A stretch of 51,894 nt of DNA from Candidatus Eiseniibacteriota bacterium (GCA_014729815.1 WJJG01000349.1:1-51894); one strand, 5' to 3'. Counted from the stretch's first letter, positions 9,477 to 39,192 are shown. The notes: generated by a model from the sequence alone, not told the origin. Numbers and translations are program-made.

Positions 9477-9750
9477 CCCCAGGCGGGGCGGGCGATATGC
9501 GGAGCGAGTGCGTCCAGGTGCGATCGGGGGGGCGGGTCGCGCGGCTTGCGTATCGCCCGCCCTGTGTCTCGCCTGCCCCGCTGGATGCATTCACGCCTCC
9601 TTCTCTGCCATCCCCGGCGCCCATGGGATCGGCTTCTCCCGCGGCGCCCCCCCTCGCCTCTCCTGTGCGGCCTTGCCGCACCTAGCGTATACTCACGGTG
9701 TACGCATGCTCGTTCTGCCGCCGCTCGTTCCGCCAGCAAGGAGAGACGCC

Positions 9751-12700
9751 ATGTCCGATGGCCCGATCCGCCCTCCCTTCGCCAAGACCGCCCGCCCCGG
9801 ATGGATCCGCAGGAGATCCCGCACGCCACGCGCCGGTGCCATGCTACGTGCTTGCGGCGTGGCCTTCGCCGGTGCCGTGCTACGTGCTTGCGGCGTGGCC
9901 TTCGCCGGTGCCGTGCTCCTCGCCTGCGCCGCGCTTCTGAGCCCCGCGCCCCGCGCCGAGCGCGCCACGTCGACCGAGATGCACCGCGTCTGCGAGAACT
10001 TCCTGCGCTACACCCTCGATCGGCAGGGGCACTGGGCCGGTTCCCGGGCGCCGCGGATCGTCGGCGGAGACGCGATCGTCGTCGGCCCCCACGGCGCCAC
10101 CGCACAGCTCCCGGCCGGCACGCTGCTGGCGCGCAACTACGAGATCTTCCCCAGCGGGCACATCGTCGTCCCCGCGCTCAAGGAGCTGCCGCCGATCAAG
10201 GCGTATTCGGAGCCGTTCGCACTCGAGGTCGCCGCAGCCGGCGGTTTCTCCGCGATGCTCCGACAGATCCTCACCGACCGGGCGCTGCGCTTCATCCACG
10301 CCTACGGAAGCCTCGATGCCGCACAACCGACGCTGGCCGAGGGCGGGGGCGATCCCGCAGCGGCCGGCCTGCTGTTCGGGCCCACGCACCGCCGACTGTG
10401 GGATCTGCTGCTCCGGGATCCGCCGCGCTTTCACGCTTCACTGGCGCGGAACGAGTTTGGCCGCCGGGAGGAGGTCGGCCCGCTCCTGACCACCTCCTGG
10501 CACCAGGCCGCGCCCTACTGGGACTACTGTCCGATGGGGGATGGCGGCCGCTGCGTGGTCGGCTGCGTGGCGACGGCCACCGCGCAGGTCATGCGCCACT
10601 GGGCGTGGCCGCCGCGGGGAAACGGCGAGTCCTGGCACTACTGGAATGGGGATCAGTCCTGCGGCGGCGACACGCCCGGCGAGAATCTCTTTGCCGACTA
10701 CTCGGACCCCTACGACTGGGAGAACATGCCCGACAACTGCCTCGGTGGATGTGTCGCCGAAGAGCGCGCAGCCCTGGCCGAGCTCAACTTCGAAGTCGGT
10801 GTGGGCGAGCTCATCGACTACGGACATTGCGGGTCCGGTGGGGTCATGGAGATGGTGATCCTCGCCCTGCGCGACTACTTCCACTACGAGCCGCAGATGG
10901 AGCTCGTATCGCGGGGAGAGTATACGGCGGATACATGGTTCGAACTGATCCGCGACGAGATCGACGCCGGCCGCCCGATGCCCTACGGGATCCCCGGCCA
11001 CGCGCTGGTCTGCGATGGGTGGAGAACCGACGCCTACACGCGCGAGATCCACATGAACTACGGCTGGGGCGGCAGCTACAACGCCTGGTACGTGCTCGAT
11101 GAGCTCTACGGTCTCCAGAATCCCCTGAACCAATCACTCATCGCCGGCGTGCGTCCGGTCGAGATCTTCCCCCTGCAACCCGACGGCAGCGGTCTCTTCC
11201 CCACGATCCAGGATGCCGTGGACATGGCGCGCGACGGCACGCGCATCGTGCTCGCCGATGGCACCTATACCGGTCCCGGCAATCGCGATATCGACCTGCT
11301 GGGCAAGCAGCTCACCATCCGCTCGCAGAGCGGCGACTACCGCACGTGCACGATCGATTGCCAGGGATCAGCCCAGGATCCGCACCGGGCTTTCGTCGCG
11401 CGCAGCGCAGAGACCGCGGCCACGGTGATCGAGGGCCTGACGATCCGCGGCGGGTACGCCGGAGAGCCCGATCCGAGCGGTGGGGCGATCGTCTGTATGG
11501 GCGCCGCGCCCACCTTGCGCGAGTGCCTGCTGATGGAGAATCGCGCCGCGGAGCGCGGCGGGGCGGTCTACTGCGGCGAGGGCGCAACGCCCGTACTGGA
11601 GCGCTGCATTTATCTCGGCAACCAAGCGCTCACCGAAGGCGGCGCGCTGGCCTGCGACGGCGCCGTCCCACAGATCGAGAACTGCTGTTTTCTGGAAGGC
11701 ACGGCCGCGGACGGCAGCGCGATCGCCGCCATCGGCGCGAGTGCGCTCTTGATCGACAGCACGATCCTGGCCTTCGGCGAAGCCGGCGAGCCGGTGGCCT
11801 GCATCGCCGGCGGATCCGCGCAGCTCGCCTGCTGCGATGTCTACGGCAACGCCGCGGGAGACTACGTCGGCTGCCTCGAGGGCCAATACGGGGTCGATGG
11901 CAACATCTCCGCCGACCCGATCTTCTGCAACCCCGACGCGCTCGACTTCACGCTCGCCGCCGAATCGCCCTGTCTGCCCCATACGCCGCCCAACGAGCCG
12001 TGCGAGCTGATCGGCGCATACGGGGCGGGTTGTGGGGCGATCGTGGTCTACCAAGACGGGTCCGGGCCCTTCCCCACGATCCAGTCGGCGATCGACGCGG
12101 CTGCCGAGGGCGCCACCATCCATCTGGCCGAGGGCGTCTTCACCGGGGAGGGGAATCGCGACATCGACTTCGGCGGTCGCTCGGTGACCGTTCGTTCGTT
12201 GAGCGGCGATCCCGCGACCTGCGCGATCGACTGCCAGGGCTCGGCCGAGACGTGGCATCGCGGCTTCGTCTTCGATTCGGATGAGGGTCCTGCCAGCGTG
12301 CTCGAAGGCGTCACGGTGCGCGGTGGCCACTACGACATCGCGGGCGCCGTCTGCATCGAGAGCTGCTCGCCCACGCTGCGGAACGTAGTGCTCGCCGACA
12401 ACTCCGCCGACTTCGGCGGCGCCGTGCGCGCGCGCAATGGCGCCACGCCGCTCTTCGAGCGCGTGGTCTTCCTGCGCAACAGTGCCCGCCTGGGGGCCGG
12501 CGCCTACTGCCTGGGCGGCTCGGACGCCACTTTCCGCAACTGCACCTTCCACGACAACGCGGCCAGCCACTACGGCGCCGGCCTGCGCGTGCACGATCAC
12601 ACCAACGCGATTCTCGAGAACACGATCATCGCCTTCAGCTCCCGCGGGGAGGCGGTCTCGTGCCACCTCGCCAGCTACCCGGTGCTCTCCTGCTGCGATC

Positions 12701-13242
12701 TATACGGCAACGCCGGCGGGGACTGGACCGGCCCAATCGCCGAACAGCTCGGCGTGAGCGGCAACATCTCGGAAGATCCGCTCTTCTGCGACGCCGCGGC
12801 GGGGGACGTCGGCCTGCAGCCCGGCTCCCCCTGCGCGCCCTACGCGCCCCCCAACGGAGCGTGTGGTCTGCTGGGCGCGCGGTATGTCGGGTGCGGAGTG
12901 AGCGACGCACAAAACCGCAACGAGCAGGGTGGCGATGGGGAGACATCGCTCGTAAACCGGCTGTGGCTGCGCCCGGCCTCGCCGAGTCCGATGCTACGGC
13001 AGACGCGGATCGAGTTCGGCATTCCCGCCACGCTCGACGAGGCTCGCGTGCACCTGGCGGTGATCGATCCGGCGGGGCGAAGAGTACGCTGCCTGTTGGA
13101 CGAGGTGCGCGGGGCCGGCCGGCATGTCACGCATTGGAACGGAACCGATGGGAGCGGACGGGCGGCGCCCGGGGGACTCTACTTTCTGCGCTTGACCGTG
13201 GGAGAGCGGGAGATCGTGCGGCGGATCGTGCGCGCGCGCTGA
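9751..13242 (+). CDS. Exported peptidase C10 (streptopain-like cysteine protease) fused to two beta-helix (PbH1-like) modules and a FlgD-Ig/T9SS-type CTD
   Basis: ORF 9508..13242. Start set to ATG 9751, with AAGGAGAG at 9738-9745. C10 active-site context: GCVATATAQVMRHWAWP (Cys codon 10564-10566) and GIPGHALVCDGW (His codon 10999-11001). Two ~290-aa repeats follow, each starting ..DGSG(L/P)FPTIQ(D/S)A(V/I)D.. and ending CCD(V/L)YGNA(A/G)GD..GNIS(A/E)DP(I/L)FC... CTD: ..VHLAVIDPAGRRVRCLL..HWNGTDGSGRAAPGGLYFLRLTV..RIVRAR. Confidence 0.8.
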   Translation: MSDGPIRPPFAKTARPGWIRRRSRTPRAGAMLRACGVAFAGAVLRACGVAFAGAVLLACAALLSPAPRAERATSTEMHRVCENFLRYTLDRQGHWAGSRAPRIVGGDAIVVGPHGATAQLPAGTLLARNYEIFPSGHIVVPALKELPPIKAYSEPFALEVAAAGGFSAMLRQILTDRALRFIHAYGSLDAAQPTLAEGGGDPAAAGLLFGPTHRRLWDLLLRDPPRFHASLARNEFGRREEVGPLLTTSWHQAAPYWDYCPMGDGGRCVVGCVATATAQVMRHWAWPPRGNGESWHYWNGDQSCGGDTPGENLFADYSDPYDWENMPDNCLGGCVAEERAALAELNFEVGVGELIDYGHCGSGGVMEMVILALRDYFHYEPQMELVSRGEYTADTWFELIRDEIDAGRPMPYGIPGHALVCDGWRTDAYTREIHMNYGWGGSYNAWYVLDELYGLQNPLNQSLIAGVRPVEIFPLQPDGSGLFPTIQDAVDMARDGTRIVLADGTYTGPGNRDIDLLGKQLTIRSQSGDYRTCTIDCQGSAQDPHRAFVARSAETAATVIEGLTIRGGYAGEPDPSGGAIVCMGAAPTLRECLLMENRAAERGGAVYCGEGATPVLERCIYLGNQALTEGGALACDGAVPQIENCCFLEGTAADGSAIAAIGASALLIDSTILAFGEAGEPVACIAGGSAQLACCDVYGNAAGDYVGCLEGQYGVDGNISADPIFCNPDALDFTLAAESPCLPHTPPNEPCELIGAYGAGCGAIVVYQDGSGPFPTIQSAIDAAAEGATIHLAEGVFTGEGNRDIDFGGRSVTVRSLSGDPATCAIDCQGSAETWHRGFVFDSDEGPASVLEGVTVRGGHYDIAGAVCIESCSPTLRNVVLADNSADFGGAVRARNGATPLFERVVFLRNSARLGAGAYCLGGSDATFRNCTFHDNAASHYGAGLRVHDHTNAILENTIIAFSSRGEAVSCHLASYPVLSCCDLYGNAGGDWTGPIAEQLGVSGNISEDPLFCDAAAGDVGLQPGSPCAPYAPPNGACGLLGARYVGCGVSDAQNRNEQGGDGETSLVNRLWLRPASPSPMLRQTRIEFGIPATLDEARVHLAVIDPAGRRVRCLLDEVRGAGRHVTHWNGTDGSGRAAPGGLYFLRLTVGEREIVRRIVRAR
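9835..9917 (+). repeat. 36-bp in-frame tandem duplication (2.3 copies) inside the signal-peptide region of the C10 protease gene
   Basis: Unit 1 is ggtgccatgctacgtgcttgcggcgtggccttcgcc (9835-9870). Unit 2 is ggtgccgtgctacgtgcttgcggcgtggccttcgcc (9871-9906), with 1 mismatch. A partial unit ggtgccgtgct follows. The encoded sequence is GAMLRACGVAFA-GAVLRACGVAFA-GAVL. Confidence 0.9.
11170..12900 (+). repeat. Protein-level tandem duplication of a ~290-aa beta-helix module within the C10 protease gene
   Basis: Module 1 starts PLQPDGSGLFPTIQDAVDMARDGTRIVLADGTYTGPGNRDIDLLGKQLTIRSQSGDYRTCTIDCQGSA. Module 2 starts VVYQDGSGPFPTIQSAIDAAAEGATIHLAEGVFTGEGNRDIDFGGRSVTVRSLSGDPATCAIDCQGSA. Both end with the same Cys-rich tail. 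Confidence 0.75.
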
Positions 13243-13306: not shown

Positions 13307-13906
13307 CTACGACGACGACTTCTCCCGCCGCTCGATGAGCACGACGGCGTAGCGGAGCTGCTCCTCGGTGACCCCCTCGAGCACCACTTCTCCACTCTCA
13401 CCCACCGCGAAGACGGGTCCCGCCGCACCGATGCGCAGCTTGAGCTGCGACGTGGGATCATCCCGGCCATCGATCACGTATGCGCACAGGCGGCCGTCCG
13501 CCTCCTGGCGGAAGCGCACGACGTAGTCTCCTTCCGCGCTGCGGAGTACGGGCAACCGTGACGCGCTCGCGGTGCCCGGATCGGCAGCCAGCGCGCGATA
13601 GTGATTGCGCGGTAGGATCGGTTGCAGCGGGATCAGCTCCGCGGGGGTGTGCTGCGCCGGGCGACTCCGCGACTTGCGGGAGAGGATGGCAAAGAGGCGC
13701 GTGAGCTCGGCGCGGATCGCGGGGGTGTGCAAGGCGGCCAGATCCTCCGCCGATGCCGTCCCGTGCTGGGTCAGGATGCGGAACGACTCGAGGCGTCGCC
13801 GGCATACCTCGCAACCTGCCAGATGCTCCTGCGTCTCCGGGCTGGGTTCAAACGATTCGCCACCGTCGATGATTCGCACGAGTTCCCGATCCTCGAGATG
13901 TCCCAT
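13307..13906 (-). CDS. Soluble zf-HC2 (anti-sigma-factor-like zinc finger) protein, 199 aa
   Basis: ORF 13307..13945, trimmed to ATG 13904-13906 with GAAGG upstream. The N-terminus MGHLEDRELVRIIDGG..HLAGCEVCRRRLESF matches the H-x3-C-x2-C putative zinc finger of anti-sigma factors. I see no hydrophobic TM segment. It lies 147 nt downstream of the Lon-like gene on the same strand. Confidence 0.6.
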   Translation of the reverse strand: MGHLEDRELVRIIDGGESFEPSPETQEHLAGCEVCRRRLESFRILTQHGTASAEDLAALHTPAIRAELTRLFAILSRKSRSRPAQHTPAELIPLQPILPRNHYRALAADPGTASASRLPVLRSAEGDYVVRFRQEADGRLCAYVIDGRDDPTSQLKLRIGAAGPVFAVGESGEVVLEGVTEEQLRYAVVLIERREKSSS

Positions 13907-14053
13907 CGATTGTACCTTCACTTGCGCGCTGCACAGTAGCGCCACGACGTCACTCGATTGCCCACTGCACGAGCCACCCCGTCACAGGATTTGCTGAAAC
14001 CTCGGTGGGCCCCGCAGGCCCCCTGGAGTGACTAGCAGAATCCTAGCAGATGG

Positions 14054-16300
14054 TCACTCCTCAGACCAGCGGTGCTGGATCCGATCGCCACAGAAGATTG
14101 CGCTGCGCCAGCGATCGAGAAACGCTTCCCCGCAGAGGTCGGCGACCAGGGGGCCCTGCGTCGCGACGAAGTGCTCCATATTCGCTGTCGGCAGAATGCG
14201 TAGCTCTCCGCAGGGGATGCCGGCCGCGATCAGGTAGTCGGGCACCCTTCGCGCGAGATGGGTGGCGCTGATCGCCAGCCGGGGCACGGTGGCCTTCCGC
14301 TCGGTGCCGACCAGCTCGAAGATCTCTCCCTCCGGCCACCATAGCTCCGTAATGCCTGATGCCGCAGTGAATTCGGGGATCAGGGGGACCACCAGATGCG
14401 TCAGGCAGAGGCCGTCGTGCACCTCGCCCGCGACCCGCGCGGCGCCCCCCTGCGTGCTAGGATCGGCCATCGACGCGGAGCTTCGGAACGGCGCGAACTG
14501 GTTGGCATGCAGTACCACGAGAGAAACGCCCTTGCTGGGAGTGTGATGCCCGGCCGCCAGGATCTCCGGCGTGCCATCGAAATCGAGATCGACGACCTCG
14601 ATCTGCTCGAAGTAGCCGATGTGCCGTACGACCCCGACCGGATCCCGCAGGCCATCGAAGAGCCAGAGCAGGCAGTCAGCCTCAGGATTCAGGGCCACCG
14701 CGAGGACGATCTCGTCATCCTCGTCTCCATCGCAGTCCGCGATCCGGCCGACCTTCGTCGAGTAGCTCACCCCGGGACGGTCGCGCAACGGATCACCCGG
14801 CAGGCCGGATTCGGTGAAGATGTATCGCCACACCGTCTCTTGCGCCAGCGGGTCGTAGACGACCAGACGTCCCGGATGCCCGCCGGCCTGCGCGGTGGCA
14901 TAGGCGATCCGTAGCGCCCCCCGCTCGTCCCCCGCGAGGCGATCGGTTTTCATGACGATCCGGACGGGGCCCTCGGTGGGTACCAGAAGCGGCGCGGTCT
15001 GACCGGGCCAGGTGACGCGCAGCTCGCGCTGCTCGTGAATCGTCTCGACGCGCAGGTCCGCCAGCGCGGGAGCCGGCTCGGCTCCGATTCCGGGGAGCGA
15101 CGATCGGTCCCCGTCTCCCCCGCGCAGGGCGAGGCCGATCAGGATCGCCGCAACGACCGCCGCGGCGATGAGGCCGCCCGCGAGCCACGGGGGTCGGCGG
15201 CGGATGCTCCTGCGCGCCCGATCGGCGCCGGGCCAGGGCTCGGTGATCTCGAAGGCCGTGGGTTCGGAAAGCAGGAAGCCGGAGACGTGCGCCAGCTCCG
15301 CCACCTGAAACCCGCTGCGCTCGGTCTCTGTCGCATCCGCCATGCCTGCGGGGATCACGATGCCCGCCACCCCCCCCTGCCGCGCGGCGCGGATCTTGTG
15401 CGCGAGTGAGAGTGCTTCGATCCTGCCCACCTCGCCCCTGGGCGAGATGCGCCCCGTCCAAGCCAGATCGCCCCGCGGCCGGCGATCCCAACCGCGGCCC
15501 GCACAAGCCTTCAGGGCGGCGGTGAAAGCGACGCACAGCCCCAAGCCGATCGAATCGCCCACGATCGGGGCTTCCTTCTCCGAGATCGAGATCTCGAAGC
15601 CCAGACCCTCCTCGCATGCTTGCGGCGCATCGGGGACGGCCTCGCACGCCGCCATGAAGGCGTCGGCCGCGACATCGTTCAGCGCACGCATGCCGCTGAG
15701 CGATTCGCCGGTATGTGCGTTGTTCCACGAGACGAGCGGGGCGCCCGGTACGCGCCGCCGGGGCACGAGCGTCAGTTCGGTGATCAGTCCCACCTGCCCG
15801 GGCGCCTCCGCGTCCCAGGACGGCGCGGGAATCGGATGCAGCAGCGGCACACGCAGCAGGATCTGCTGGCCGGGCGGCGCGCTTGCCATCGCCGCAGGAA
15901 CATCGGTCCCCTGCGTGCGACCGCTCCCTTCGGCGGCCGATGCGGCCAGCAACGCCCGCGCCACGCTGGTCTCGAGGAGTCCGTCGCGCACGAGTCGCTC
16001 GAGCGCGTCGCGGACCCAGGCCTGGTGCTTCGGGTCGCGGAAGCGATCGGTCATCCGCTCGAGCGCGGGAAGGAGGCGGGATGCCGATTCCTGCAGGTAG
16101 TATCGGCGGCCGCGCAGATCGTCCGGAAGCGCCGTTATGAAACGCGCCGTAGCCAGCGCGCGCACGTTCGGCAAGGCGCACTCGTCCCAGAGCATGCCCA
16201 GGTCTTCAAAGTAGTCATCGATCGCACGGACGTCTGGCACTCTCCGGCACTCCCGTTTGAACAGGTCCCTTCCGAAAGATGCTCGGGTCCAACGGCCCAT
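14054..16300 (-). CDS. Membrane protein: N-terminal helical domain, ATPase-less Lon-type (S16) Ser-Lys protease domain, 1 TM helix, extracytoplasmic FG-GAP/VCBS-like domain
   Basis: ATG at 16298-16300 with no clear RBS. The alternative start Met36 at 16195 is possible. Lon proteolytic-domain pattern: ..EISISEKEAPIVGDSIGLGLCVAFTAALKA.. (Ser codon 15551-15553), ..WTGRISPRGEVGRIEALSLAHKIRAARQGGVAGIVIPAG.. (Lys in AHKIRAA). There is no Walker A. An Arg-rich stretch ADRARRSIRRRPPW precedes the TM helix LAGGLIAAAVVAAILIGLAL. The C-terminal part has Ca-binding-like loops DCDGDEDDEIVL and DLDFDGTPEILAAG. Confidence 0.7.
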   Translation of the reverse strand: MGRWTRASFGRDLFKRECRRVPDVRAIDDYFEDLGMLWDECALPNVRALATARFITALPDDLRGRRYYLQESASRLLPALERMTDRFRDPKHQAWVRDALERLVRDGLLETSVARALLAASAAEGSGRTQGTDVPAAMASAPPGQQILLRVPLLHPIPAPSWDAEAPGQVGLITELTLVPRRRVPGAPLVSWNNAHTGESLSGMRALNDVAADAFMAACEAVPDAPQACEEGLGFEISISEKEAPIVGDSIGLGLCVAFTAALKACAGRGWDRRPRGDLAWTGRISPRGEVGRIEALSLAHKIRAARQGGVAGIVIPAGMADATETERSGFQVAELAHVSGFLLSEPTAFEITEPWPGADRARRSIRRRPPWLAGGLIAAAVVAAILIGLALRGGDGDRSSLPGIGAEPAPALADLRVETIHEQRELRVTWPGQTAPLLVPTEGPVRIVMKTDRLAGDERGALRIAYATAQAGGHPGRLVVYDPLAQETVWRYIFTESGLPGDPLRDRPGVSYSTKVGRIADCDGDEDDEIVLAVALNPEADCLLWLFDGLRDPVGVVRHIGYFEQIEVVDLDFDGTPEILAAGHHTPSKGVSLVVLHANQFAPFRSSASMADPSTQGGAARVAGEVHDGLCLTHLVVPLIPEFTAASGITELWWPEGEIFELVGTERKATVPRLAISATHLARRVPDYLIAAGIPCGELRILPTANMEHFVATQGPLVADLCGEAFLDRWRSAIFCGDRIQHRWSEE

Positions 16301-16693
16301 CTCGGGGAGAAGTTCGTCACTCGACTACATGGGAACAACCGCGTCATGGCGTACGCTGTTCCCCAGCCACAGGAGCCCGTGCGCGTAGTCGGGACGCTAG
16401 CACCGGATTGTCGCGGGGTCAACGAGGGCCGCCGCAGGGGCTGGCGGAAGACGCCGCGGCCTGGTTCGCTGCCTGGGGGCTTGGTTCGAGTGCCCACGCC
16501 CCATGGCCGAGTGCGGCCCGATCGGATCGCTTTGCGGAGGAAGGCACACCCACCTTCCGATACTATTGTAGTCGGCGATCATCCTATCGTCGGTGGCGTT
16601 CATTTCGATGATGCAACGATTTAGCGCTCAGTGTCGCCGCGCGACGCCTGTCCTCGCCGCGAGCGCGCGAGCCCCAGCCTGGGAGGAGATCCG

Positions 16694-19255
16694 ATGCCGC
16701 GCCGTTTCGCAGTGGCCTTCGTCCTGGTGCTCTTCATCATAGGCCTCTTCGCACTCCTCTGGTTCTCGCAGAACCAGGACGAGGAGGGCGAGTCGCGCGA
16801 CCCCTCCGGCCGCCCGAACGAATGGTTCTGGCATCAGCGCGCCTATCCCCACGGCGACATTCGCCTCTCCTCGGTGCGCCTGGCGCTCGAGCAGGCCGCG
16901 GCGCTGCGCGCCGCCGAGCGGGGGACGCGCGTGGCCTGGCAGCCCGAGGGGCCGGGCAACATTGGGGCTCGGGTGACCGACGTCGCGGTGCATCCCACCG
17001 ACCCGGACATCGTCTACGCAGCCATGGCCAGCGGCGGGGTCTTCAAGTCGACCGACGCCGGCGAGAGCTGGACCCCGACCTTTGACGAGCAGGCGGTGCT
17101 CTCGGTGGGCGCGGTGGCGATCGACCCCACCAATCCGGATCTGATCTGGGCCGGCACGGGCGAGGCCAACGCCGGCAGCTTCAGCTTCTTCGGGCTGGGC
17201 ATCTACCGCTCGACCGATGCCGGGGCGAGCTGGGAGCCGCGCGGACTCGAGGAGACCCGCTACATCGCGCGCATCGTCGTCGATCCACACAACGGGCAGC
17301 GCGTGTTCGCGGCCGCCACCGGTCGGCTCTTCGGTACCGGTCCCCATCGCGGCATCTATCGCACGAGCGACGGCGGGGAGAGCTGGGAGCGCGTCTTGGC
17401 CCTGACCGATTCGACTGCGGCGATCGACCTGGTCATGAATCCCACCGATCCGGACATCCTCTACGCCGCGATGTGGGAGCGTTCACGCGGTCTCAACTAC
17501 CGCAACTCCGGCGGTCCCTCGAGCGGCGTCTGGCGCAGCACCGACGGCGGGGAGAGCTGGAACGAGCTCATCAACGGTCTTCCCACGGGCAGTGACGTAG
17601 GACGCATCGGGCTGACGCTGTGTACCTCGCAGCCCGAAGTGCTCTATGCGATCTACGCCGATGCGACCGGCTACTTCGAAGGCGTCTACAAATCGACCGA
17701 CGGCGGCGATAGTTGGTCGGGCACCAATGACGGCGCTCTGGGCAACCTCTACAGCTCCTACGGCTGGTGGTTCGGCAACATCCGCGTCGATCCCAGCGAC
17801 CCGGACAACGTCCTGGCCCTGGGTCTCCCCTGCTATCGCTCGACCAATGGCGGGGCGAGCTGGTCGGAGACGGGGCCGAACATGCACGTCGACCACCACG
17901 GCATGGCCTTCGCCCCCTCGCGGCCGACGCGCGTCTACGACGGCAATGATGGCGGCGTCTACCGCTCGGAGGACTCCGGCGCCACCTGGACGAAGCTCTA
18001 CGACCAGCCCAGCTCGCAGTTCTACGCCATCGCGATCGACCCCCTCAATCCCCACCGCCTCTACGGCGGGACGCAGGACAACGGCACGCTGCGCACATGG
18101 AACGGGGGCACGGATGATTGGGAGATGATCCTTGGCGGCGACGGCTTCTACTGCATCGTCGATCCGACCAACTCGAACACGATCTACGCCGAGTACCAGT
18201 ACGGCAATCTCTACAAGTCGACCAACGGCGGCTACGGCTGGAGCGATGCGACCGACGGCATCAGCTACGGCGACCGGCGCAACTGGTCGACGCCGGTGGT
18301 GATGGATCCCAACTTCGAGCCGATCCTCTACTACGGCACGTTCCGGCTCTATCGCAGCGCGAATGCCGCCGGCTCCTGGTCGCCGATCAGCGGCGACTTG
18401 ACCGGCGGCAACCAGGGCGGCAACTACGGCACGATCACCACGATCGATGTGGCCCACACCGATCCGGATGTGATCTACGTCGGCACCGACGACGGACGCG
18501 TGTGGGTCACCAGCAACGCTGGAGACGATTGGACGCGCATCTCCGACGATTTGCCCGACCGCTGGATCACGCGTGTCGAGACCGACCCGAGCGATGCGGC
18601 GATCGTCTACGTGACCGTCTCCGGATTCCGCTGGGACTCGCCCGCGCCGCACGTCTTCCGCAGCGATGACATGGGCGCAAACTGGACCGACATCAGCGGC
18701 AACCTCCCCGAGGCGCCAGCCAACGTGATCGTCTGCGATCCCGACTACCCGAACGTGCTCTATGTGGGCACCGATATCGGCTGCTTCGTCAGCGCCACGA
18801 CCGGGGAGAGCTGGTCGGCGCTCGGCACCGGTCTGCCAGCCGCTCCGGTGCTCGACCTGAAGCTGCACGCGCCCACCCGCACACTCGTGGCCGGCACGCA
18901 CGGGCGCTCGATGTTCAGCCTGGATGTCTCCGATCTGGTGTCGTTGGTGCCGAATGCGCCGGCCGCCGCGGATCTGCGCCCGGCGCTTCGGCTCGCACCG
19001 CGCCGCAATCCGTTCGCCGAGGAGACCACGCTGCGCTACGAGCTCGAACGATCCGCCGGGGTGCGCTTGAGCATCCACGACGTCAGCGGCCGTGAGCTGA
19101 TCGTGCTGGTCGATGGCCGGCAGAGCGCGGGCCCGCACGAGGTGCGCTGGCGGGCGCGCGACCGCAACGGGCGATCGGTGCCGCCGGGCGTCTACTTTGC
19201 GCGGATCGCCGCGGATGGCCGCACCGCCGAGCGGAAGCTGGTGGTTCTGGAGTGA
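16694..19255 (+). CDS. Exported multi-Asp-box (BNR/sortilin-VPS10-like, GH74-like) beta-propeller protein with FlgD-Ig/T9SS-type CTD
   Basis: ORF 16631..19255 begins with GTG. I set the start to ATG 16694, with GGGAGGAG at 16681-16688. N-terminal TM/signal: FAVAFVLVLFIIGLFALLWF. Many Asp boxes: STDAGESW, STDAGASW, TSDGGESW, STDGGESW, STDGGDSW, STNGGASW, SEDSGATW, STNGGYGW, SNAGDDW, SDDMGANW, ATTGESW. CTD: ..VRLSIHDVSGRELIVLV..RWRARDRNGRSVPPGVYFARIAA..KLVVLE. Confidence 0.85.
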   Translation: MPRRFAVAFVLVLFIIGLFALLWFSQNQDEEGESRDPSGRPNEWFWHQRAYPHGDIRLSSVRLALEQAAALRAAERGTRVAWQPEGPGNIGARVTDVAVHPTDPDIVYAAMASGGVFKSTDAGESWTPTFDEQAVLSVGAVAIDPTNPDLIWAGTGEANAGSFSFFGLGIYRSTDAGASWEPRGLEETRYIARIVVDPHNGQRVFAAATGRLFGTGPHRGIYRTSDGGESWERVLALTDSTAAIDLVMNPTDPDILYAAMWERSRGLNYRNSGGPSSGVWRSTDGGESWNELINGLPTGSDVGRIGLTLCTSQPEVLYAIYADATGYFEGVYKSTDGGDSWSGTNDGALGNLYSSYGWWFGNIRVDPSDPDNVLALGLPCYRSTNGGASWSETGPNMHVDHHGMAFAPSRPTRVYDGNDGGVYRSEDSGATWTKLYDQPSSQFYAIAIDPLNPHRLYGGTQDNGTLRTWNGGTDDWEMILGGDGFYCIVDPTNSNTIYAEYQYGNLYKSTNGGYGWSDATDGISYGDRRNWSTPVVMDPNFEPILYYGTFRLYRSANAAGSWSPISGDLTGGNQGGNYGTITTIDVAHTDPDVIYVGTDDGRVWVTSNAGDDWTRISDDLPDRWITRVETDPSDAAIVYVTVSGFRWDSPAPHVFRSDDMGANWTDISGNLPEAPANVIVCDPDYPNVLYVGTDIGCFVSATTGESWSALGTGLPAAPVLDLKLHAPTRTLVAGTHGRSMFSLDVSDLVSLVPNAPAAADLRPALRLAPRRNPFAEETTLRYELERSAGVRLSIHDVSGRELIVLVDGRQSAGPHEVRWRARDRNGRSVPPGVYFARIAADGRTAERKLVVLE

Positions 19256-19264
19256 GGCGAGCGG

Positions 19265-20977
19265 CTATCGCAGCAGCGTCAGCTTCCCGCTGCTCGTGAA
19301 GTCGCCGATCCGCACGCCGTAGAGATAGACTCCGCTCGCGGCCCGCGAGCCGTCGCCGGTCCGTCCGTCCCAGGGGACGATGTGCTCGCCGGGCTTGCGC
19401 GATCCATCCCAGAGCGAGCGGATCGGGCGACCCTCGAGGTCGAAGACCGTGATCCGGACCGGCTGACTGGCTTTGCCGGGCACCGCGAAGCGGATCTGTG
19501 CGCGCGCACGCATCGGATTCGGTGCTGCGGGGAGCACGCGGGGCGTCGTCCAGCCCTCCATCCCGCCGGGCGCTCCATCGATGCCCGAGAGGAGTCCTTC
19601 GCCCCCGTTCTCGGTGTGCAGCATGACCGGCAGATCGGGCCACAGCGCGCCTGCAGCCCAGCCATGGTTGGCATCGACGAAGCAGAGATCCGCGATGACG
19701 ATCTGCTCGTCCCCGGTCCCGGTTTCCTGCACCTCCCAGAGCAGTCCGCCATCCTCGGTGTGCAGGATCACCGGGACGTAGTCGCCGAAGTCCACTCCGC
19801 CGATCCAGCCGGTCTGGTCGTCGACGAAGAAGACGGTGCGCAGCTCCGCCGAAGTGCCGGCCGTCTGGGCCGTCCAGGTCTCGCCTCCATCGGCCGTGTG
19901 CCGAATCGTGCCGTTGTCGCCCACGCACCACCCCGTTTGTGCATCGACGAAGCAGACATCATGCAGGGAGCTGCTGCTTGCAGGATCCTGCGGGAGCCAC
20001 GTGTCGCCACCGTCTGCGGTGGCCACGAGCACATCGGAGCCACCCACGGCCCAGCCGTGCTCGACATCGACGAAGTGCACCCGCTCGAGAGGACGGTCGT
20101 AGGGGTTGTAGTACTGGTGGTTCCAGGTCTGTCCGCCGTTCGAGGTGTGCTCGATGATCTGATGGTGACTGCTGCCAAAGAGGTCGCGGAACCCGCCCAC
20201 GGCCCAGCCATGCTGATCGTCGACGAAGAAGACGCCGTAGAACTCGTCCTCGCCATCCGGCTCCTGCTCGATCCAGGTCACACCACCGTCGGTCGTGTTC
20301 AGAATGGTGCCGCCGAGGGACCATCCGTGTCCCACGACCCATCCAGTCTGGGCGCCGACGAAGTGCACGTCGCGGTATTCGTGCGGGTAGTACTGCCCGT
20401 CGTCCTGGGGCACCCAGATGTCGCCGCCATCTTCCGTATGGATGATCTCGCGGTAGGACGAGACCGCCCAACCGCGCTGCGTATCGACAAAGGAGACGCC
20501 GGTCAGATCGAGCTCCGTGCCGGCAGACTGCGCGTACCAGCCGGCGGTGCCGGGCAGCTTCTCGAATTCGAAGCTGTCGCTGGCCCAGATTTGGTCGGGA
20601 TGCACGCCGGCGTACGCCGTGTATGTATAGATCCCCTCCGGCATGCCCCCGGAGATCGCCTGCGAGCGATCATCCTGCGCCGACCAGCCATCGGGCAGCT
20701 CCAGATGCGCCGGGCCGTACCCGGGCTCTTCGCCGCCGCCCGGCAGCGTGATCACCGTCCAGACGTCGAGTATCTGCGCCGTCGGCTCTTCGTTGTCCAC
20801 CGCCACGGCATAGCCGAAGTTGCCCCCCTCGTCGGGCAGCAGGATGGGTGGGTTGTAGGGGGTCAGGGTGATCCCGATCTCGGCGCGCGTCGTTGCCGGG
20901 CTCTGCGCCGGCGCGCGGGCGCCTGCCGCCAGCAGGATCAGGGCGGCGCAGCCGAACGCCTGCATTGCACGTACCAT
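19265..20977 (-). CDS. Exported Ycf48/BNR-like beta-propeller protein with FlgD-Ig/T9SS-type CTD
   Basis: ORF 19265..21001, trimmed to ATG 20975-20977. AAGGAGG lies 5 nt upstream on the minus strand. Signal peptide: MVRAMQAFGCAALILLAAGARAPAQ. Repeats of the form T(E/D/N)DGG(x)(T/I)W: TEDGGDIW, TTDGGVTW, TSNGGQTW, TADGGDTW, TADGGETW, TEDGGLLW. CTD: ..VRITVFDLEGRPIRSLW..PWDGRTGDGSRAASGVYLYGVRI..KLTLLR. It is convergent with the previous gene, with only 9 nt between the stops. Confidence 0.85.
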   Translation of the reverse strand: MVRAMQAFGCAALILLAAGARAPAQSPATTRAEIGITLTPYNPPILLPDEGGNFGYAVAVDNEEPTAQILDVWTVITLPGGGEEPGYGPAHLELPDGWSAQDDRSQAISGGMPEGIYTYTAYAGVHPDQIWASDSFEFEKLPGTAGWYAQSAGTELDLTGVSFVDTQRGWAVSSYREIIHTEDGGDIWVPQDDGQYYPHEYRDVHFVGAQTGWVVGHGWSLGGTILNTTDGGVTWIEQEPDGEDEFYGVFFVDDQHGWAVGGFRDLFGSSHHQIIEHTSNGGQTWNHQYYNPYDRPLERVHFVDVEHGWAVGGSDVLVATADGGDTWLPQDPASSSSLHDVCFVDAQTGWCVGDNGTIRHTADGGETWTAQTAGTSAELRTVFFVDDQTGWIGGVDFGDYVPVILHTEDGGLLWEVQETGTGDEQIVIADLCFVDANHGWAAGALWPDLPVMLHTENGGEGLLSGIDGAPGGMEGWTTPRVLPAAPNPMRARAQIRFAVPGKASQPVRITVFDLEGRPIRSLWDGSRKPGEHIVPWDGRTGDGSRAASGVYLYGVRIGDFTSSGKLTLLR

Positions 20978-21178
20978 GATTGCCTCCTTCTCCTTGCGCA
21001 TCCACCCTCCCGGTGGGTCACATTCATGCGGCTGTGGACGGGACGCCGATGCAGCCCGCGAATGTCATCGTGATTTGTCGTCGCAGAGACCGACACTCTT
21101 CGCTATTCCGAAGCCCTCTGGCAGAGCCAAGCCACCCCCGGTGGGATCCCTGGAGGAGGCTTGACGGATGCTGCCATA

Positions 21179-22876: not shown

Positions 22877-23122
22877 TGGCTCGTCTCCTTTCCATCGGGG
22901 CACTGACCCATCGGATTCGCTCCCTGCAGGGCGCGGCCCCCGAACCGCCGGGCCCGCCTGACATGTGCTCGCGACTCCCAACGACGGCCAGGCTCGATCG
23001 CCGATGGCCCAGACCGCGCGGACGGCAAGCACCTGCTTGCCCTGCATCATGCTGCCGCCCGCGGGTCTCGACGTGGCTCCTGACTGCCGATCACACGCCT
23101 TCACTCTCAAGCGCTGAACAGA

Positions 23123-23833: not shown

Positions 23834-24419
23834 CGGTACCTCCTTGGGCCTCGGCTGCCGGCGACTCATGATCGCGCAGTCGAACCGGACCTTTGATTTC
23901 TGATGCTCTCTGAACCTACTTGTGCGTAGTCCTCCCTTGACGTCACGACTGCGGCGATTCTGGAGCGCGCAAGCGGTGGTCGGTATCGGGGGGGATGCGG
24001 GGATCGCGACCGGACATCTCCCCAGGTTGGGGAGCGCAACTGCGTGGCGTGCAGAGCGCTAGCTCCCCTGCGTTCGACTTCGCCCGGTACCCGCAAATCA
24101 GTGTCACCGGGCGCGAGACCGCGCGGGCAGCGCGCACCAGTATTTGCCATCGCGTGCTGCCGCCCGCGGGTCCCGAGGCAAGACGTGACCGCAGGCTGCG
24201 TGTGATCGCACCGTGTGCGCGGCGCCATGTCCGCCGTGGACGCAACCAACTGTATGTCCCTCCGCTTGCTTTCTCCCGACTCCTCATCCGTGACCCTGCG
24301 TGGAGTACGCGAGCCGCAGCACGCTGTGACGGTCTTTCGAGGTGCCACGCCGCGCCGCTGTCGAGGATCTCCGTGCGTCACAGATCCCAGGCCGACGCGT
24401 ACTGTGCCGATGGCATGCG

Positions 24420-24448
24420 TTGCGCTCGCCGGCTTCGTGGGCTACGAT
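24420..24448 (+). promoter_or_regulatory. Candidate sigma-70-type promoter upstream of the ECF sigma gene
   Basis: TTGCGC (24420-24425), a 17-nt spacer, then TACGAT (24443-24448). It lies ~38 nt upstream of the GTG at 24486. Pattern match only. Confidence 0.25.
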
Positions 24449-24485
24449 CCGCTGCGCACATGTCTGCCGAAAGCGAGGGTCGTCC

Positions 24486-26111: not shown

Positions 26112-26153
26112 AGCGGCCCGGGGGTGGTGCGCGGCATCAGAAAGGAGGCCTCC

Positions 26154-30505: not shown

Positions 30506-30531
30506 CCCTGTCGCAGGTCAGTTGGTGAGTG

Positions 30532-38870: not shown

Positions 38871-39173
38871 ATGTGGAAGCTTATCCCCCTCAGTCGAGGC
38901 CATCTCGTCTCTCTTTGCTGCCTCGCCCTTGCTGGGCTTCTATTGCTTGCGGGCGTGGCCGAAGGGGCACCGCTGCCGGTTGCTCAAGGACCCAGAACAC
39001 CCGACGGAGACATCGACGACTACCCCACACTCGTTTCCCCACCGTCTTCGTCTTCTGCTCTGGCGAGCCACCCTGCTCGTCTGAGTGTTGCGGTCGCCGC
39101 TTTGTGGGACGACCAACTTCCAGCAGTTCCGCGTCGGATTCGTCATGCTGGTTGCGTCCGCAAATGCGCGTGA
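38871..39173 (+). CDS. Possible small secreted protein (100 aa)
   Basis: ATG 38871 is preceded by GTGGAGG (38858-64) with a 6-nt spacer. Signal peptide: MWKLIPLSRGHLVSLCCLALAGLLLLAGVAEGAP. I recognise no homology. It ends 20 nt before the GTG 39193 start proposed for the activator. Confidence 0.35.
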   Translation: MWKLIPLSRGHLVSLCCLALAGLLLLAGVAEGAPLPVAQGPRTPDGDIDDYPTLVSPPSSSSALASHPARLSVAVAALWDDQLPAVPRRIRHAGCVRKCA

Positions 39174-39192
39174 CTTCCGCGAAGAGGTCCTT

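What the first reader, a model, noticed from the sequence alone, without database searches (positions are those of the whole stretch)
13307..16300. Transmembrane protein joining a cytoplasmic ATPase-less Lon-type protease domain to an extracytoplasmic FG-GAP-like domain, followed by a soluble zf-HC2 protein
Seen in sequence:
- The Lon_C-like Ser-Lys dyad context is present (IVGDSIGLG, Ser codon 15551-15553; LAHKIRAARQGG). There is no Walker motif anywhere in the 748 aa.
- An Arg-rich segment precedes the single TM helix, so by the positive-inside rule the protease domain is cytoplasmic.
- The C-terminal ~370 aa carry DxDxDG-type loops (DCDGDEDDEIV, DLDFDGTPEIL).
- 147 nt downstream on the same strand is a 199-aa protein with the H-x3-C-x2-C anti-sigma zinc-finger motif and no TM segment.

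Established knowledge:
- Regulated proteolysis of anti-sigma factors is a common signalling logic.
- Lon-like S16 domains without an ATPase occur in YlbL/LonC-like and BrxL-type proteins.

Inference: this may be a one-polypeptide outside-in signalling protease whose substrate is the adjacent zf-HC2 protein. I do not recall this domain architecture being described.
Basis: partly seen in the sequence, partly recalled or inferred. Interest (0 to 1): 0.65.

Follow-up and report, generated by a model that had tools for sequence, protein, structure and literature searches.

The report
Membrane sensor protease with anti-sigma partner
This is a rare, undescribed membrane protein with a Lon-type protease domain inside the cell and a sensor-like domain outside; in most relatives its gene sits beside an ECF sigma factor and a soluble zinc-finger anti-sigma-like protein, so it probably signals across the membrane by cutting that protein, although this window lacks the sigma factor gene.

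Summary

**Protease gene (14054-16300, minus strand):**
- It has an N-terminal helical domain, a complete Lon (S16) protease fold with Ser250/Lys302 aligned to E. coli Lon S679/K722, no ATPase, one TM helix (N-in) and an FG-GAP-like ectodomain.
- It belongs to a rare family: 54 cluster representatives among 1.84 billion. Named genome hits are Candidatus Eisenbacteria MAGs.

**Partner gene (13307-13906):**
- It encodes a soluble protein with a zinc-binding anti-sigma (ZAS)-type H/C...HxxxCxxC motif.
- A nearly invariant LAA motif sits in an otherwise unconserved, predicted-disordered linker, followed by a conserved small beta domain.

**Gene neighbourhood:**
- In 15 of 19 loci examined the protease lies next to an ECF sigma factor. 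Most also carry this zf-HC2 protein, in three different gene arrangements.

**Best reading (confidence about 0.55, inferred and untested):**
- This is a one-polypeptide receptor-protease that cleaves the soluble anti-sigma, possibly at LAA to expose an ssrA-like degron.
- It is functionally analogous to CalpL-CalpT-CalpS, but the sensor is outside the cell.

**Caveat:** the window and its closest relative lack the module's sigma gene.

**Novelty:** new variant of a known kind.

The parts
14054..16300 (-). Gene for the Lon-type transmembrane protease. The ORF is 748 aa from ATG 16300. The likely start is GTG 16240, giving 728 aa.
   Evidence: The ORF is listed. The database gene call is 728 aa. 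Homologue N-termini and a GGAG conserved with L001 support the GTG start.
16394..16422 (-). Promoter-like element: TTGACC (16422-16417), a 17-nt spacer, then TGCTAGCGT with TAGCGT at 16399-16394. It is conserved with locus L001.
   Evidence: In the window/L001 upstream alignment, identity peaks at TCGTTGAC and TGCTAGCGTC around a variable spacer. The consensus scanner did not call it, so this is a putative element only.
15923..16231 (-). N-terminal cytoplasmic helical bundle (residues 24-126). Function unknown; proposed substrate-docking domain.
   Evidence: The AF2 model shows helices 24-126 with pLDDT mostly above 90. Conserved residues are R47, A50, F54 and D89-P90. No Pfam or PDB homology was found.
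15236..15862 (-). Lon (S16) proteolytic domain without an ATPase (residues 147-355).
   Evidence: The family profile hits 1rr9 at E=5e-9. Foldseek gives TM-score 0.64-0.73 (normalised to target) to 6x27, 8dvh and 1rr9. No Walker A motif was found.
15551..15553 (-). Codon of the predicted catalytic Ser250 (in the GDS motif).
   Evidence: Ser250 is invariant in 25/25 family members. It aligns with E. coli Lon position 679.
15395..15397 (-). Codon of the predicted catalytic Lys302 (K-I-R-A-A).
   Evidence: Lys302 is conserved in 24/25 members; P0007 has Gln. It aligns with E. coli Lon K722.
15125..15187 (-). Single transmembrane helix (residues 372-392), with the Arg-rich cytoplasmic flank just upstream.
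   Evidence: The 19-residue KD mean is 2.55. There are 6 K/R in the 15 residues upstream against 2 downstream. A TM segment is present in all 25 members. It is helical in the AF2 model.
14081..15052 (-). Extracytoplasmic beta-rich domain (residues 417-740) containing FG-GAP-like repeats.
   Evidence: 17/25 members hit FG-GAP_3 and 11/25 hit FG-GAP. The family profile hits the YesX/YesW PL11 propellers and CRTAC1. AF2 models this region as strands with high pLDDT.
14705..14737 (-). First DxDxDG-type loop (DCDGDEDDEIV, residues 522-532).
   Evidence: Conserved family columns include D524, D526 and E530.
14558..14590 (-). Second DxDxDG-type loop (DLDFDGTPEIL, residues 571-581).
   Evidence: D571 is nearly invariant in 25 sequences. 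D573, D575 and G576 are invariant in the six closest sequences.
13307..13906 (-). Gene for the soluble zf-HC2 (ZAS-like) protein, 199 aa.
   Evidence: The ORF is listed. AAGG lies 9-12 nt before the ATG. Homologues were found in 13 loci.
13802..13825 (-). H28-x3-C32-x2-C35 zinc-finger motif. The probable fourth ligand is H3 (codon 13898-13900).
   Evidence: H28, C32 and C35 are invariant in 12/12 sequences. Position 3 is His or Cys in 12/12.
13583..13591 (-). L106-A107-A108: a conserved short motif in the disordered linker, proposed as a cleavage site or degron.
   Evidence: Each of the three columns is conserved in 11/12 sequences, while no other column between 95 and 117 exceeds 5/12. The motif is also present in the L016 homologue. 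Residues 99-116 have pLDDT below 50.
13319..13558 (-). Conserved C-terminal beta domain of the zf-HC2 protein (residues 117-196). Fold unassigned.
   Evidence: Conserved motifs are LPxLxSxDG, VxFR and RAYV. AF2 strands have pLDDT about 80. Foldseek found no significant match.

Best explanation
The 748-aa (probably 728-aa) protein is a single-pass receptor-protease.

**Proposed anatomy**
- The extracytoplasmic FG-GAP-like domain senses an unknown signal.
- The cytoplasmic ATP-independent Lon-type Ser-Lys protease domain is the output.
- The substrate is the soluble ZAS-type anti-sigma-like protein encoded next to it.

**Proposed steps (all inferred)**
1. A signal at the ectodomain changes the oligomeric state or orientation of the cytoplasmic Lon domains.
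2. The partner protein is docked, perhaps through its conserved C-terminal beta domain on the protease's N-terminal helical bundle.
3. It is cut in its disordered linker at or next to the conserved LAA motif.
4. The N-terminal zinc-finger fragment then ends in an ssrA-like -LAA and is removed by housekeeping AAA+ proteases.
5. In the complete three-gene modules of relatives, this frees the cognate ECF sigma factor.

**What differs in this window**
- The module's sigma gene is missing here and in the closest relative.
- The sigma may be encoded elsewhere in the genome, or the pair may have been rewired to another target.

**Shown versus inferred**
- Shown: domain identities, catalytic residues, topology signals, conserved gene linkage, and the conserved motif.
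- Inferred: cleavage, the cleavage site, the degron, the activating signal, and sigma binding.
For: **Protease domain**
- The family profile hits E. coli Lon 1rr9 at E=5e-9, with the Ser/Lys dyad aligned.
- The fold match has TM-score 0.64-0.73 normalised to target, probability 1.00, on a model with pLDDT 83.7.
- G248 and S250 are invariant. K302, R304, A306 and the A280-W281-(T)-G283 motif (Lon's AMTG) are conserved in 25 sequences.

**Topology**
- There is one TM segment in 25/25 members.
- There is no hydrophobic N-terminal segment of signal-peptide type (one borderline member).
- In most members, K/R residues are in excess on the N-terminal side of the TM segment.

**Gene linkage**
- Protease -> ECF sigma -> zf-HC2 protein is found in P0005, L002, L004, L005, L007, L008, L010, L012, L013 and L014. 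In L006 and L011 the contig ends in or after the sigma gene.
- L015 has the order sigma -> zf-HC2 -> protease.
- P0026 and L016 have a convergent sigma -> zf-HC2 pair.
- The four module sigmas scanned against NCBIfam pass the TIGR02937 ECF cut-off.

**Partner protein**
- It has ZAS-type ligands: H/C at position 3 plus HxxxCxxC, in 12/12 sequences.
- LAA is conserved in 11/12 sequences per column, inside an otherwise unconserved and predicted-disordered linker.

**Precedent**
- The ATPase-less Lon protease CalpL cleaves the anti-sigma CalpT at LAA|A.
- That cut exposes a C-degron which leads to release of the ECF-like sigma CalpS (bioRxiv 10.1101/2024.05.08.593097, read).

**Other support**
- Three family members (P0026, P0031, P0037) keep the cytoplasmic module but have divergent ectodomains, as expected for a modular sensor. 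The two whose loci were looked up (P0026, P0037) also keep the sigma/anti-sigma neighbours.
- No terminator was detected between the two window genes.
Against: - There is no experimental or structural evidence that the two proteins interact or that cleavage occurs.
- The window and L001 have no module-type sigma. The only sigma hit in the window scores 43.5 bits, against 188-274 bits for module sigmas, and it has its own FecR-type anti-sigma.
- In these two sigma-less loci the zinc-finger region has diverged more than the rest of the protein. Identity to sigma-linked members is 25%, against 39% among the sigma-linked members themselves.
- Two loci (L003, L009) have the protease with neither partner.
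- One member (P0007) has Gln in place of the catalytic Lys and Ile in place of the conserved Thr, yet keeps the full module.
- The window's own Pfam scores are all below the gathering cut-offs.
- The partner's model is poor (pLDDT 60), and its anti-sigma fold is not verified.
Confidence: 0.55

Rival explanations
1. The same three-part module works without cleaving the zf-HC2 protein. The membrane protein would act as a signal-controlled docking partner (partner switching) that sequesters the anti-sigma's C-terminal domain. Alternatively, the zf-HC2 protein would be an adaptor or inhibitor of the protease, whose real substrate is the sigma factor or something else.
For: - Gene linkage shows functional coupling but not its direction.
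- P0007 lacks the catalytic Lys and the conserved Thr, yet keeps the sigma and the zf-HC2 neighbour.
- The conserved C-terminal beta domain of the partner and the conserved helical bundle of the protease look like docking surfaces.
Against: - Ser250 is invariant in 25/25 members and Lys302 is conserved in 24/25. This is hard to explain without catalysis.
- A nearly invariant LAA in a disordered linker fits a cleavage or degron site better than a docking site.
- In the CalpL precedent, the anti-sigma is the substrate.
Confidence: 0.2
2. In this window the pair is a decaying or functionally silent remnant of the three-gene module. The sigma gene was lost, and the remaining two genes no longer signal.
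For: - There is no module-type sigma in the 51.9-kb window or in the 15-kb L001 locus.
- The N-terminal zinc-finger region is the most diverged part of the partner in the two sigma-less loci. Window versus L001 identity is 46% in that region and 66% in the C-terminal part.
Against: - Both ORFs are intact in two lineages that are only 55-58% identical at the protein level.
- The catalytic Ser/Lys, all zinc ligands, LAA and the TM helix are retained.
- A promoter-like element and a Shine-Dalgarno sequence are conserved between the two loci.
- The sigma could lie elsewhere in the genome, which cannot be checked from this window.
Confidence: 0.12
3. The protease is an envelope or membrane quality-control or processing enzyme unrelated to sigma control, and its neighbours are there by coincidence.
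For: - The window neighbourhood is full of secreted proteins with FlgD_ig C-terminal domains.
- Other ATPase-less Lon_C proteins act in housekeeping proteolysis (background knowledge, not tested here).
Against: - Sigma and zf-HC2 neighbours persist across three gene arrangements while the flanking genes differ completely.
- The protease domain is predicted to be cytoplasmic, not in the envelope.
Confidence: 0.05

Closest known systems
CalpL-CalpT-CalpS (type III CRISPR-associated SAVED-Lon protease, its anti-sigma and ECF-like sigma)
   Same: - It has an ATPase-less Lon-type Ser-Lys protease fused to a sensor domain in one polypeptide.
- It is encoded with an anti-sigma and an ECF-type sigma.
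- The known cut lies in a poorly structured Ala-rich LAA|A site and exposes a C-degron. Here an LAA motif is nearly invariant in a disordered linker.
- An N-terminal helical domain precedes the Lon domain in both. For CalpL this rests on the paper read.
   Different: - The sensor here is an extracytoplasmic FG-GAP-like domain behind a TM helix, not a cytoplasmic cA4-binding SAVED domain.
- The partner is a zf-HC2 protein with a small beta domain, not MazF-like plus DUF2080.
- No cas or CBASS genes were seen in the flanks, and there are no PADLOC hits.
- CalpL is not among the PDB chains matched by the family profile at E<=1, nor among the 50 Foldseek matches listed. The likeness is therefore functional, not close homology.
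Regulated proteolysis of membrane anti-sigma factors (RseA with DegS, RseP and ClpXP; RsiW/PrsW; RsiV)
   Same: - An outside signal leads to proteolysis of an anti-sigma and release of an ECF sigma.
- RseA cleavage exposes a VAA degron for ClpXP, as cited in the paper read.
   Different: - In those systems the anti-sigma spans the membrane and is cut in turn by separate site-1 and site-2 proteases.
- Here the anti-sigma-like protein has no TM segment.
- Here the membrane-spanning component is the protease itself, with its active site in the cytoplasm.
Canonical Lon proteases (LonA, LonB; MEROPS S16, Pfam Lon_C)
   Same: - The proteolytic-domain fold, the Ser-Lys dyad and the AMTG-like and K-x-x-A-A motifs are shared.
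   Different: - There is no AAA+ module and no Walker A motif.
- The TM helix follows the protease domain rather than being inserted in an ATPase.
- A large ectodomain is present.
- The window sequence scores below the Pfam Lon_C cut-off.
Soluble zinc-binding anti-sigma factors (ZAS: RsrA, ChrR)
   Same: - They are soluble.
- They have the N-terminal H/C...HxxxCxxC motif.
- Like ChrR, there is a C-terminal beta-rich domain after the anti-sigma domain. The ChrR architecture is recalled from background knowledge.
   Different: - There is no significant sequence or fold match; ChrR 2q1z is at Foldseek E=0.33.
- The window sequence is below the zf-HC2 cut-off.
- No sigma gene is adjacent in this window.
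YlbL-type ATPase-less Lon_C proteins (TM + PDZ + Lon_C)
   Same: - It is membrane-anchored.
- It has a Lon_C domain without an ATPase.
   Different: - In YlbL the TM segment is N-terminal, so PDZ and Lon_C follow it on the outside.
- Here Lon_C precedes the TM segment and is predicted to be cytoplasmic.
- No PDZ domain was found.
- This comparison was not tested here beyond Pfam.

Membership tests
Lon protease proteolytic domain (Pfam PF05362 Lon_C, MEROPS S16) | Score at or above the Pfam gathering cut-off | tested here: not met
   The window protein scores 16.6 bits against a cut-off of 21.1. Only 8/25 family members match at E<=0.01, the best at 7e-8.
Lon protease proteolytic domain (Pfam PF05362 Lon_C, MEROPS S16) | Significant profile similarity to solved Lon proteolytic domains | tested here: met
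   The family profile hits 1rr9 at E=5.4e-9 and about 40 further Lon chains.
Lon protease proteolytic domain (Pfam PF05362 Lon_C, MEROPS S16) | Lon proteolytic-domain fold | tested here: met
   Foldseek gives probability 1.00 and TM-score 0.64-0.73 (normalised to target) over about 205 columns to 6x27, 8dvh, 1rr9 and 3wu6. The model has pLDDT 83.7.
Lon protease proteolytic domain (Pfam PF05362 Lon_C, MEROPS S16) | Catalytic Ser-Lys dyad at the homologous positions | tested here: met
   S250 aligns to position 679 and K302 to K722 of E. coli Lon. Ser is invariant and Lys is conserved in 24/25 members.
Lon protease proteolytic domain (Pfam PF05362 Lon_C, MEROPS S16) | Proteolytic activity | not testable with these tools
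   This needs an enzyme assay with an S250A control.
ATP-dependent Lon (LonA/LonB) | AAA+ ATPase module with Walker A/B motifs | tested here: not met
   No Walker A pattern was found. There are no AAA Pfam hits. Residues 24-126 form a helical bundle with no homology to anything.
ZAS-type anti-sigma factor (Pfam PF13490 zf-HC2) | HxxxCxxC with an upstream Cys/His ligand | tested here: met
   H28, C32 and C35 are invariant in 12/12 sequences, and position 3 is H or C in 12/12.
ZAS-type anti-sigma factor (Pfam PF13490 zf-HC2) | Score at or above the Pfam gathering cut-off | tested here: not met
   The window protein scores 13.4 bits against a cut-off of 22.2. The L015 homologue passes with 25.1 bits.
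ZAS-type anti-sigma factor (Pfam PF13490 zf-HC2) | Encoded next to its cognate ECF sigma factor | tested here: not met
   This is not met in the window or in L001. It is met for homologues in L002, L004, L005, L007, L008, L010, L012-L016.
ZAS-type anti-sigma factor (Pfam PF13490 zf-HC2) | Binds and inhibits a sigma factor; binds zinc | not testable with these tools
   This needs pull-down or two-hybrid assays and metal analysis.
FG-GAP / VCBS-type repeat domain | Repeat profile match and DxDxDG calcium-type loops | tested here: inconclusive
   The window scores 17.3 bits against a cut-off of 26.9. However, 17/25 members hit FG-GAP_3 (best 1.3e-7) and 11/25 hit FG-GAP. The family profile hits the YesX/YesW propellers and CRTAC1. 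Two DxDxDG loops are present. Whether the domain is a closed propeller was not determined.
CalpL-CalpT-CalpS system | SAVED (or CARF) cyclic-nucleotide sensor fused to the Lon domain | tested here: not met
   There is no SAVED or CARF hit in Pfam. The sensor position is occupied by the TM helix plus the FG-GAP-like ectodomain.
CalpL-CalpT-CalpS system | Association with type III CRISPR-Cas | tested here: not met
   None of the gene tables of the loci looked up lists a cas gene. There are no PADLOC hits. The flanks were short in several loci.
CalpL-CalpT-CalpS system | Protease encoded with an anti-sigma and an ECF-type sigma | tested here: met
   This holds in 15 of 19 loci of the family, though not in the window itself.
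Regulated intramembrane proteolysis of anti-sigma factors | Membrane-spanning anti-sigma cut by site-1 and site-2 proteases | tested here: not met
   The partner has no TM segment. The 13 homologues aligned or scanned are read as soluble from their sequences; no hydropathy scan was run on them. No S2P/RseP-type gene appears in the modules.

The most novel reading that the evidence does not exclude
This family would define a previously undescribed mode of bacterial transmembrane signalling.
- It is a single-pass receptor whose cytoplasmic output domain is an ATP-independent Lon-type protease.
- Ligand binding outside the cell triggers one cut in a soluble ZAS anti-sigma factor at a conserved LAA.
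- The cut creates an ssrA-like degron and so releases a dedicated ECF sigma factor.
- This would be a cell-surface counterpart of the CRISPR-associated CalpL-CalpT-CalpS cascade.
- Sensor ectodomains would be interchangeable between family members.
Probability: 0.4. Interest if true: 0.85.

Novelty: new variant of a known kind. Interest (0 to 1): 0.68.

Why it matters
ECF sigma factors are one of the main bacterial signalling systems. The known ways of activating them are cascades of separate proteases acting on membrane anti-sigmas, partner switching, phosphorylation, and sigma-factor extensions.

A receptor that carries its own cytoplasmic Lon-type protease and acts on a soluble anti-sigma would add a compact route: one protein from signal to cut.

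It would also show that the protease/anti-sigma/sigma logic recently found in CRISPR-associated systems (CalpL, Craspase) is used for sensing outside the cell as well.

The module is small, apparently self-contained, and has a predicted defined cut site. That makes it directly testable in E. coli and potentially useful as an orthogonal synthetic switch.

It also gives a first functional handle on regulation in Candidatus Eisenbacteria, a phylum known here only from metagenome-assembled genomes.

Tried and rejected
- **Word-indexed homologue searches.** All three returned only the window protein and one 55-58% identical relative. The third search, run with the family alignment, was wasted. The index-free HMMER search was what revealed the family.
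- **Locus scans.** The search for related loci with the 25-sequence alignment failed for lack of a conserved stretch. A 6-sequence alignment worked. The metagenome scan gave only one locus.
- **Structure prediction of the partner.** The 2-sequence model is poor (pLDDT 60), and its Foldseek search gave nothing significant. The anti-sigma fold of the partner is therefore unverified.
- **N-terminal helical bundle.** Profile search against PDB and Pfam gave only designed helical repeats and noise. The longer Foldseek alignments that include the LonA alpha-subdomain have rmsd of about 9-19 Å and add almost nothing to the TM-score. The idea that the bundle is a remnant of the AAA+ lid was dropped as unsupported.
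- **The window's other ECF sigma (about 24.6-25.1 kb) as the missing partner.** Rejected. It scores 43.5 bits against the module sigma profile and has its own FecR-type TM anti-sigma starting at its stop codon.
- **Defence-system link.** There are no PADLOC hits, including BrxL-type models.
- **ECF-type autoregulated promoter.** None is evident upstream of the operons. Several loci instead show housekeeping-like TTGAC-N17-TAnnnT elements.
- **The NCBIfam CU044_5270 hit (E=2.6e-4).** It covers only the TM region and was disregarded.
- **Literature.** The searches and the ECF re-classification paper contain no description of a Lon/FG-GAP/ECF module. Its supplements were not available.
- **Public sequencing runs.** No run holding the stretch could be listed.

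Full report
**1. What is in the sequence**

The minus strand carries an ORF at 14054-16300 (748 aa from ATG 16300). A second ORF begins 147 nt downstream; its ATG at 13906 gives a 199-aa product ending at 13307.

- IVGDSIGLG is at residue 246, with the Ser250 codon TCG at 15551-15553.
- LAHKIRAARQGG is at residue 299 (Lys302).
- There is no Walker A pattern.
- One strongly hydrophobic segment spans about 372-392, preceded by ADRARRSIRRRPPW.
- DCDGDEDDEIV is at residue 522 and DLDFDGTPEIL at residue 571.
- The small protein has H28-x3-C32-x2-C35 and no hydrophobic segment.

The likely start of the large gene is GTG 16240 (728 aa). Three things point to it:
- The public gene call has that length.
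- Homologues begin at the equivalent residue.
- A GGAG conserved with the related locus L001 precedes it.

No terminator-like site lies between the two genes. Upstream of the large gene, the window and L001 share two islands of identity around a variable 17-nt spacer: TCGTTGAC and TGCTAGCGTC. This looks like a housekeeping-type promoter. It is only a putative element, because the consensus scanner did not call it.

**2. Are the domain calls real?**

On the single sequence they are only suggestive. All Pfam scores fall below the gathering cut-offs:

| Family | E-value | Bits | Cut-off |
|---|---|---|---|
| Lon_C | 0.006 | 16.6 | 21.1 |
| FG-GAP_3 | 0.0076 | 17.3 | 26.9 |
| zf-HC2 | 0.087 | 13.4 | 22.2 |

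The word-indexed protein search found only one relative, 55% identical. An index-free HMMER search of 1.84 billion cluster representatives found 54 proteins at E<=0.001. About 25 are full-length with the same layout, 690-800 aa long.

In a 25-sequence alignment:
- G248 and S250 are invariant.
- K302, R304, A306 and A280-W281-(T)-G283 are conserved in at least 90% of sequences. These correspond to Lon's GxS, K-x-x-A-A and AMTG motifs.

A profile of this alignment hits the E. coli Lon proteolytic domain 1rr9 at E=5.4e-9, plus about 40 other Lon chains. The family Ser sits on position 679 and the family Lys on K722.

An AlphaFold model built on the alignment has mean pLDDT 83.7. It resolves four parts:
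- a helical bundle (residues 24-126)
- an alpha/beta domain (147-355)
- a TM helix (372-392)
- a beta-rich domain (417-740)

Foldseek against the PDB puts the alpha/beta domain on Lon proteolytic domains, with probability 1.00 and target-normalised TM-scores of 0.64-0.73.

For the C-terminal half:
- FG-GAP_3 is matched by 17/25 members and FG-GAP by 11/25.
- The profile also hits the FG-GAP-type propellers YesX and YesW, and CRTAC1.

The helical bundle has no detectable relatives.

**3. Topology**

The large protein has no hydrophobic N-terminal segment of the kind a signal peptide needs, and the same holds for its relatives (one borderline member). All 25 aligned members have one TM segment at the same place. 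In most of them Lys/Arg residues are more numerous in the 15 residues before it than in the 15 residues after it; the window has 6 against 2.

With a single TM segment and no signal peptide, the first ~370 residues, including the protease domain, stay in the cytoplasm. The FG-GAP-like domain is outside. The 199-aa protein has neither a signal peptide nor a TM segment, so it shares a compartment with the protease domain.

**4. The neighbourhood is the key result**

I examined 19 loci of the family:
- genome and metagenome loci L001-L007
- contigs encoding twelve representatives

The arrangements found were:

| Arrangement | Loci |
|---|---|
| protease -> ECF sigma -> ~200-240-aa protein, often with 4-nt overlaps | P0005, L002, L004, L005, L007, L008, L010, L012, L013, L014 |
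| same, but contig ends in or after the sigma gene | L011, L006 |
| sigma -> zf-HC2 protein -> protease | L015 |
| sigma -> ~200-aa pair convergent with the protease | P0026, L016 |
| protease -> zf-HC2 protein, no sigma | window, L001 |
| protease alone | L003, L009 |

- The sigmas have Sigma70_r2 and r4_2 domains, and the four scanned against NCBIfam pass the TIGR02937 ECF cut-off.
- They form one coherent group, scoring 144-274 bits against their own profile.
- The small proteins are homologues of the window's 199-aa protein, with HMM E-values from 1e-35 to 1e-81.
- Flanking genes differ completely from locus to locus.
- P0026, P0031 and P0037 have ectodomains that do not align with the FG-GAP-like one. 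P0026 and P0037 (the two whose loci were looked up) still keep the sigma and the small protein next door. This is the pattern expected of a conserved cytoplasmic output module with exchangeable sensor domains.

**5. The small protein**

An alignment of 12 homologues shows:
- H28, C32 and C35 are invariant.
- Position 3 is His or Cys in every sequence. This gives the spacing of a zinc-binding anti-sigma (ZAS) motif.
- A variable linker follows.
- The C-terminal domain is conserved, with motifs LPxLxSxDG, VxFR and RAYV.

Inside the linker, L106-A107-A108 is conserved in 11/12 sequences at each column. No other column between 95 and 117 exceeds 5/12. The L016 homologue also has it, as PLAAH.

In the low-confidence model of the protein, residues 99-116 are disordered (pLDDT below 50). 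The C-terminal beta domain has pLDDT of about 80. Foldseek gave no significant match.

**6. How it most likely works**

The best-supported reading is a one-polypeptide receptor-protease. The ectodomain senses a signal, and the cytoplasmic Lon-type domain cuts the soluble anti-sigma-like protein. In complete modules, this frees the ECF sigma.

The closest functional precedent is CalpL-CalpT-CalpS, as described in bioRxiv 10.1101/2024.05.08.593097 (read):
- CalpL is an ATPase-less Lon protease fused to a SAVED sensor.
- It cleaves the anti-sigma CalpT in a poorly structured LAA|A site.
- That cut exposes a C-degron, which leads to removal of the fragment and release of the sigma.
- Activation works through oligomerisation, with cleavage in trans.
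- The same paper notes the analogous VAA degron of RseA.

By analogy I propose the following steps:
1. Signal-dependent oligomerisation of the membrane protein.
2. Docking of the partner's beta domain on the helical bundle.
3. A cut at the conserved LAA.

All of these steps are inference. What is shown is the protease fold with an intact dyad, the topology signals, the conserved three-gene linkage, and the conserved motif in a disordered linker.

**7. What does not fit**

- The window and its closest relative L001 lack the sigma gene. The small protein follows the protease directly.
- The only sigma-like ORF in the window (24342-25145) scores 43.5 bits against the module sigma profile. It is followed at its stop codon by its own FecR-type TM anti-sigma at 25145-25972.
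- In these two sigma-less loci, the zinc-finger region has diverged more from the sigma-linked homologues than those have from each other (25% against 39% identity). The C-terminal part has not (30% against 30%).
- So the sigma is either elsewhere in the genome, or this lineage has rewired or is losing the output.
- Both genes are nonetheless intact in two lineages only 55-58% identical. All catalytic residues, zinc ligands and the LAA motif are preserved.
- One family member (P0007) has Gln for the catalytic Lys and Ile for the conserved Thr while keeping the module. This leaves some room for a non-catalytic, partner-switching variant.
- Two loci have the protease alone.

**8. Comparison with what is known, and novelty**

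By fold and catalytic residues, the cytoplasmic domain belongs to the Lon S16 proteolytic-domain superfamily. It is not an ATP-dependent Lon.

It is not a CalpL homologue in any close sense:
- There is no SAVED domain.
- There is no CRISPR context.
- There are no PADLOC hits.
- CalpL is absent from the profile's PDB hits at E<=1.

It is not a regulated-intramembrane-proteolysis system, because the anti-sigma is soluble.

Full-text searches found no description of a Lon/FG-GAP/ECF module. The main text of the ECF re-classification paper does not mention Lon or protease in any group context. Its supplements were not available.

I therefore rate it a new variant of a known kind. The logic of protease, anti-sigma and sigma is known. 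A transmembrane receptor with a cytoplasmic Lon-type output domain is not.

The family is rare: 54 representatives in 1.84 billion. The only named genomes are Candidatus Eisenbacteria MAGs.

**9. Verdict**

- The mechanism is untested, and the window's copy lacks its sigma.
- Interest is 0.68.

Noticed in passing
window 9508-13242 (+), 16631-19255 (+), 19265-21001 (-), 21179-23110 (-), 32531-35488 (+): Five large predicted secreted proteins all end in a FlgD_ig-like C-terminal domain. Their other domains are Peptidase_C10 plus beta-helix; Sortilin/BNR; PSII_BNR (Ycf48-like); SBBP; and DUF7948 plus SBBP. This looks like a shared sorting or anchoring tag. The same tag appears on neighbours in related loci (P0005 contig, L015).
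   Followed up: partly
window 24342-25145 (+) and 25145-25972 (+): A separate ECF sigma factor (Sigma70_r2 and r4_2) has a stop codon that overlaps the start of a single-TM FecR-domain protein. This is a conventional sigma/anti-sigma pair, unrelated to the Lon module.
   Followed up: yes
window 30529-31296 (+): This 255-aa protein has a TIR domain (TIR_2, E=1.4e-21). It is followed by a 234-aa ORF with no Pfam match. It could be a defence or NADase-type element.
   Followed up: no
window 26124-28436 (+) and 28373-30505 (+): Two adjacent paralogous genes encode DUF3857 proteins. One also has a transglutaminase core and the other has DUF3858.
   Followed up: no
window 3712-5901 (-): The pyruvate kinase ORF is 729 aa long. 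The PK barrel match starts only at residue 244, so the ORF either has a long N-terminal extension or its start is over-called.
   Followed up: no
L002 about 5660-5800 (upstream of the protease gene): A unit of roughly 45 nt (…TCGTCGGAGATATGAAGAGTGACGCGGATCATCTCCTCGCC…) is repeated three to four times in tandem just upstream of the protease gene of this Eisenbacteria MAG. It is absent from the window.
   Followed up: no
L008 (protein P0007): This family member has Gln in place of the catalytic Lys and Ile in place of the conserved Thr of the AWTG motif. It still keeps GDS, the sigma gene and the zf-HC2 gene. It may be an inactive or differently acting variant.
   Followed up: partly
window 39085-41742 (+): This 885-aa sigma-54-dependent activator (Sigma54_activat, AAA lid, HTH) has a long N-terminal region of about 570 aa with no match at E<=0.001.
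   Followed up: no
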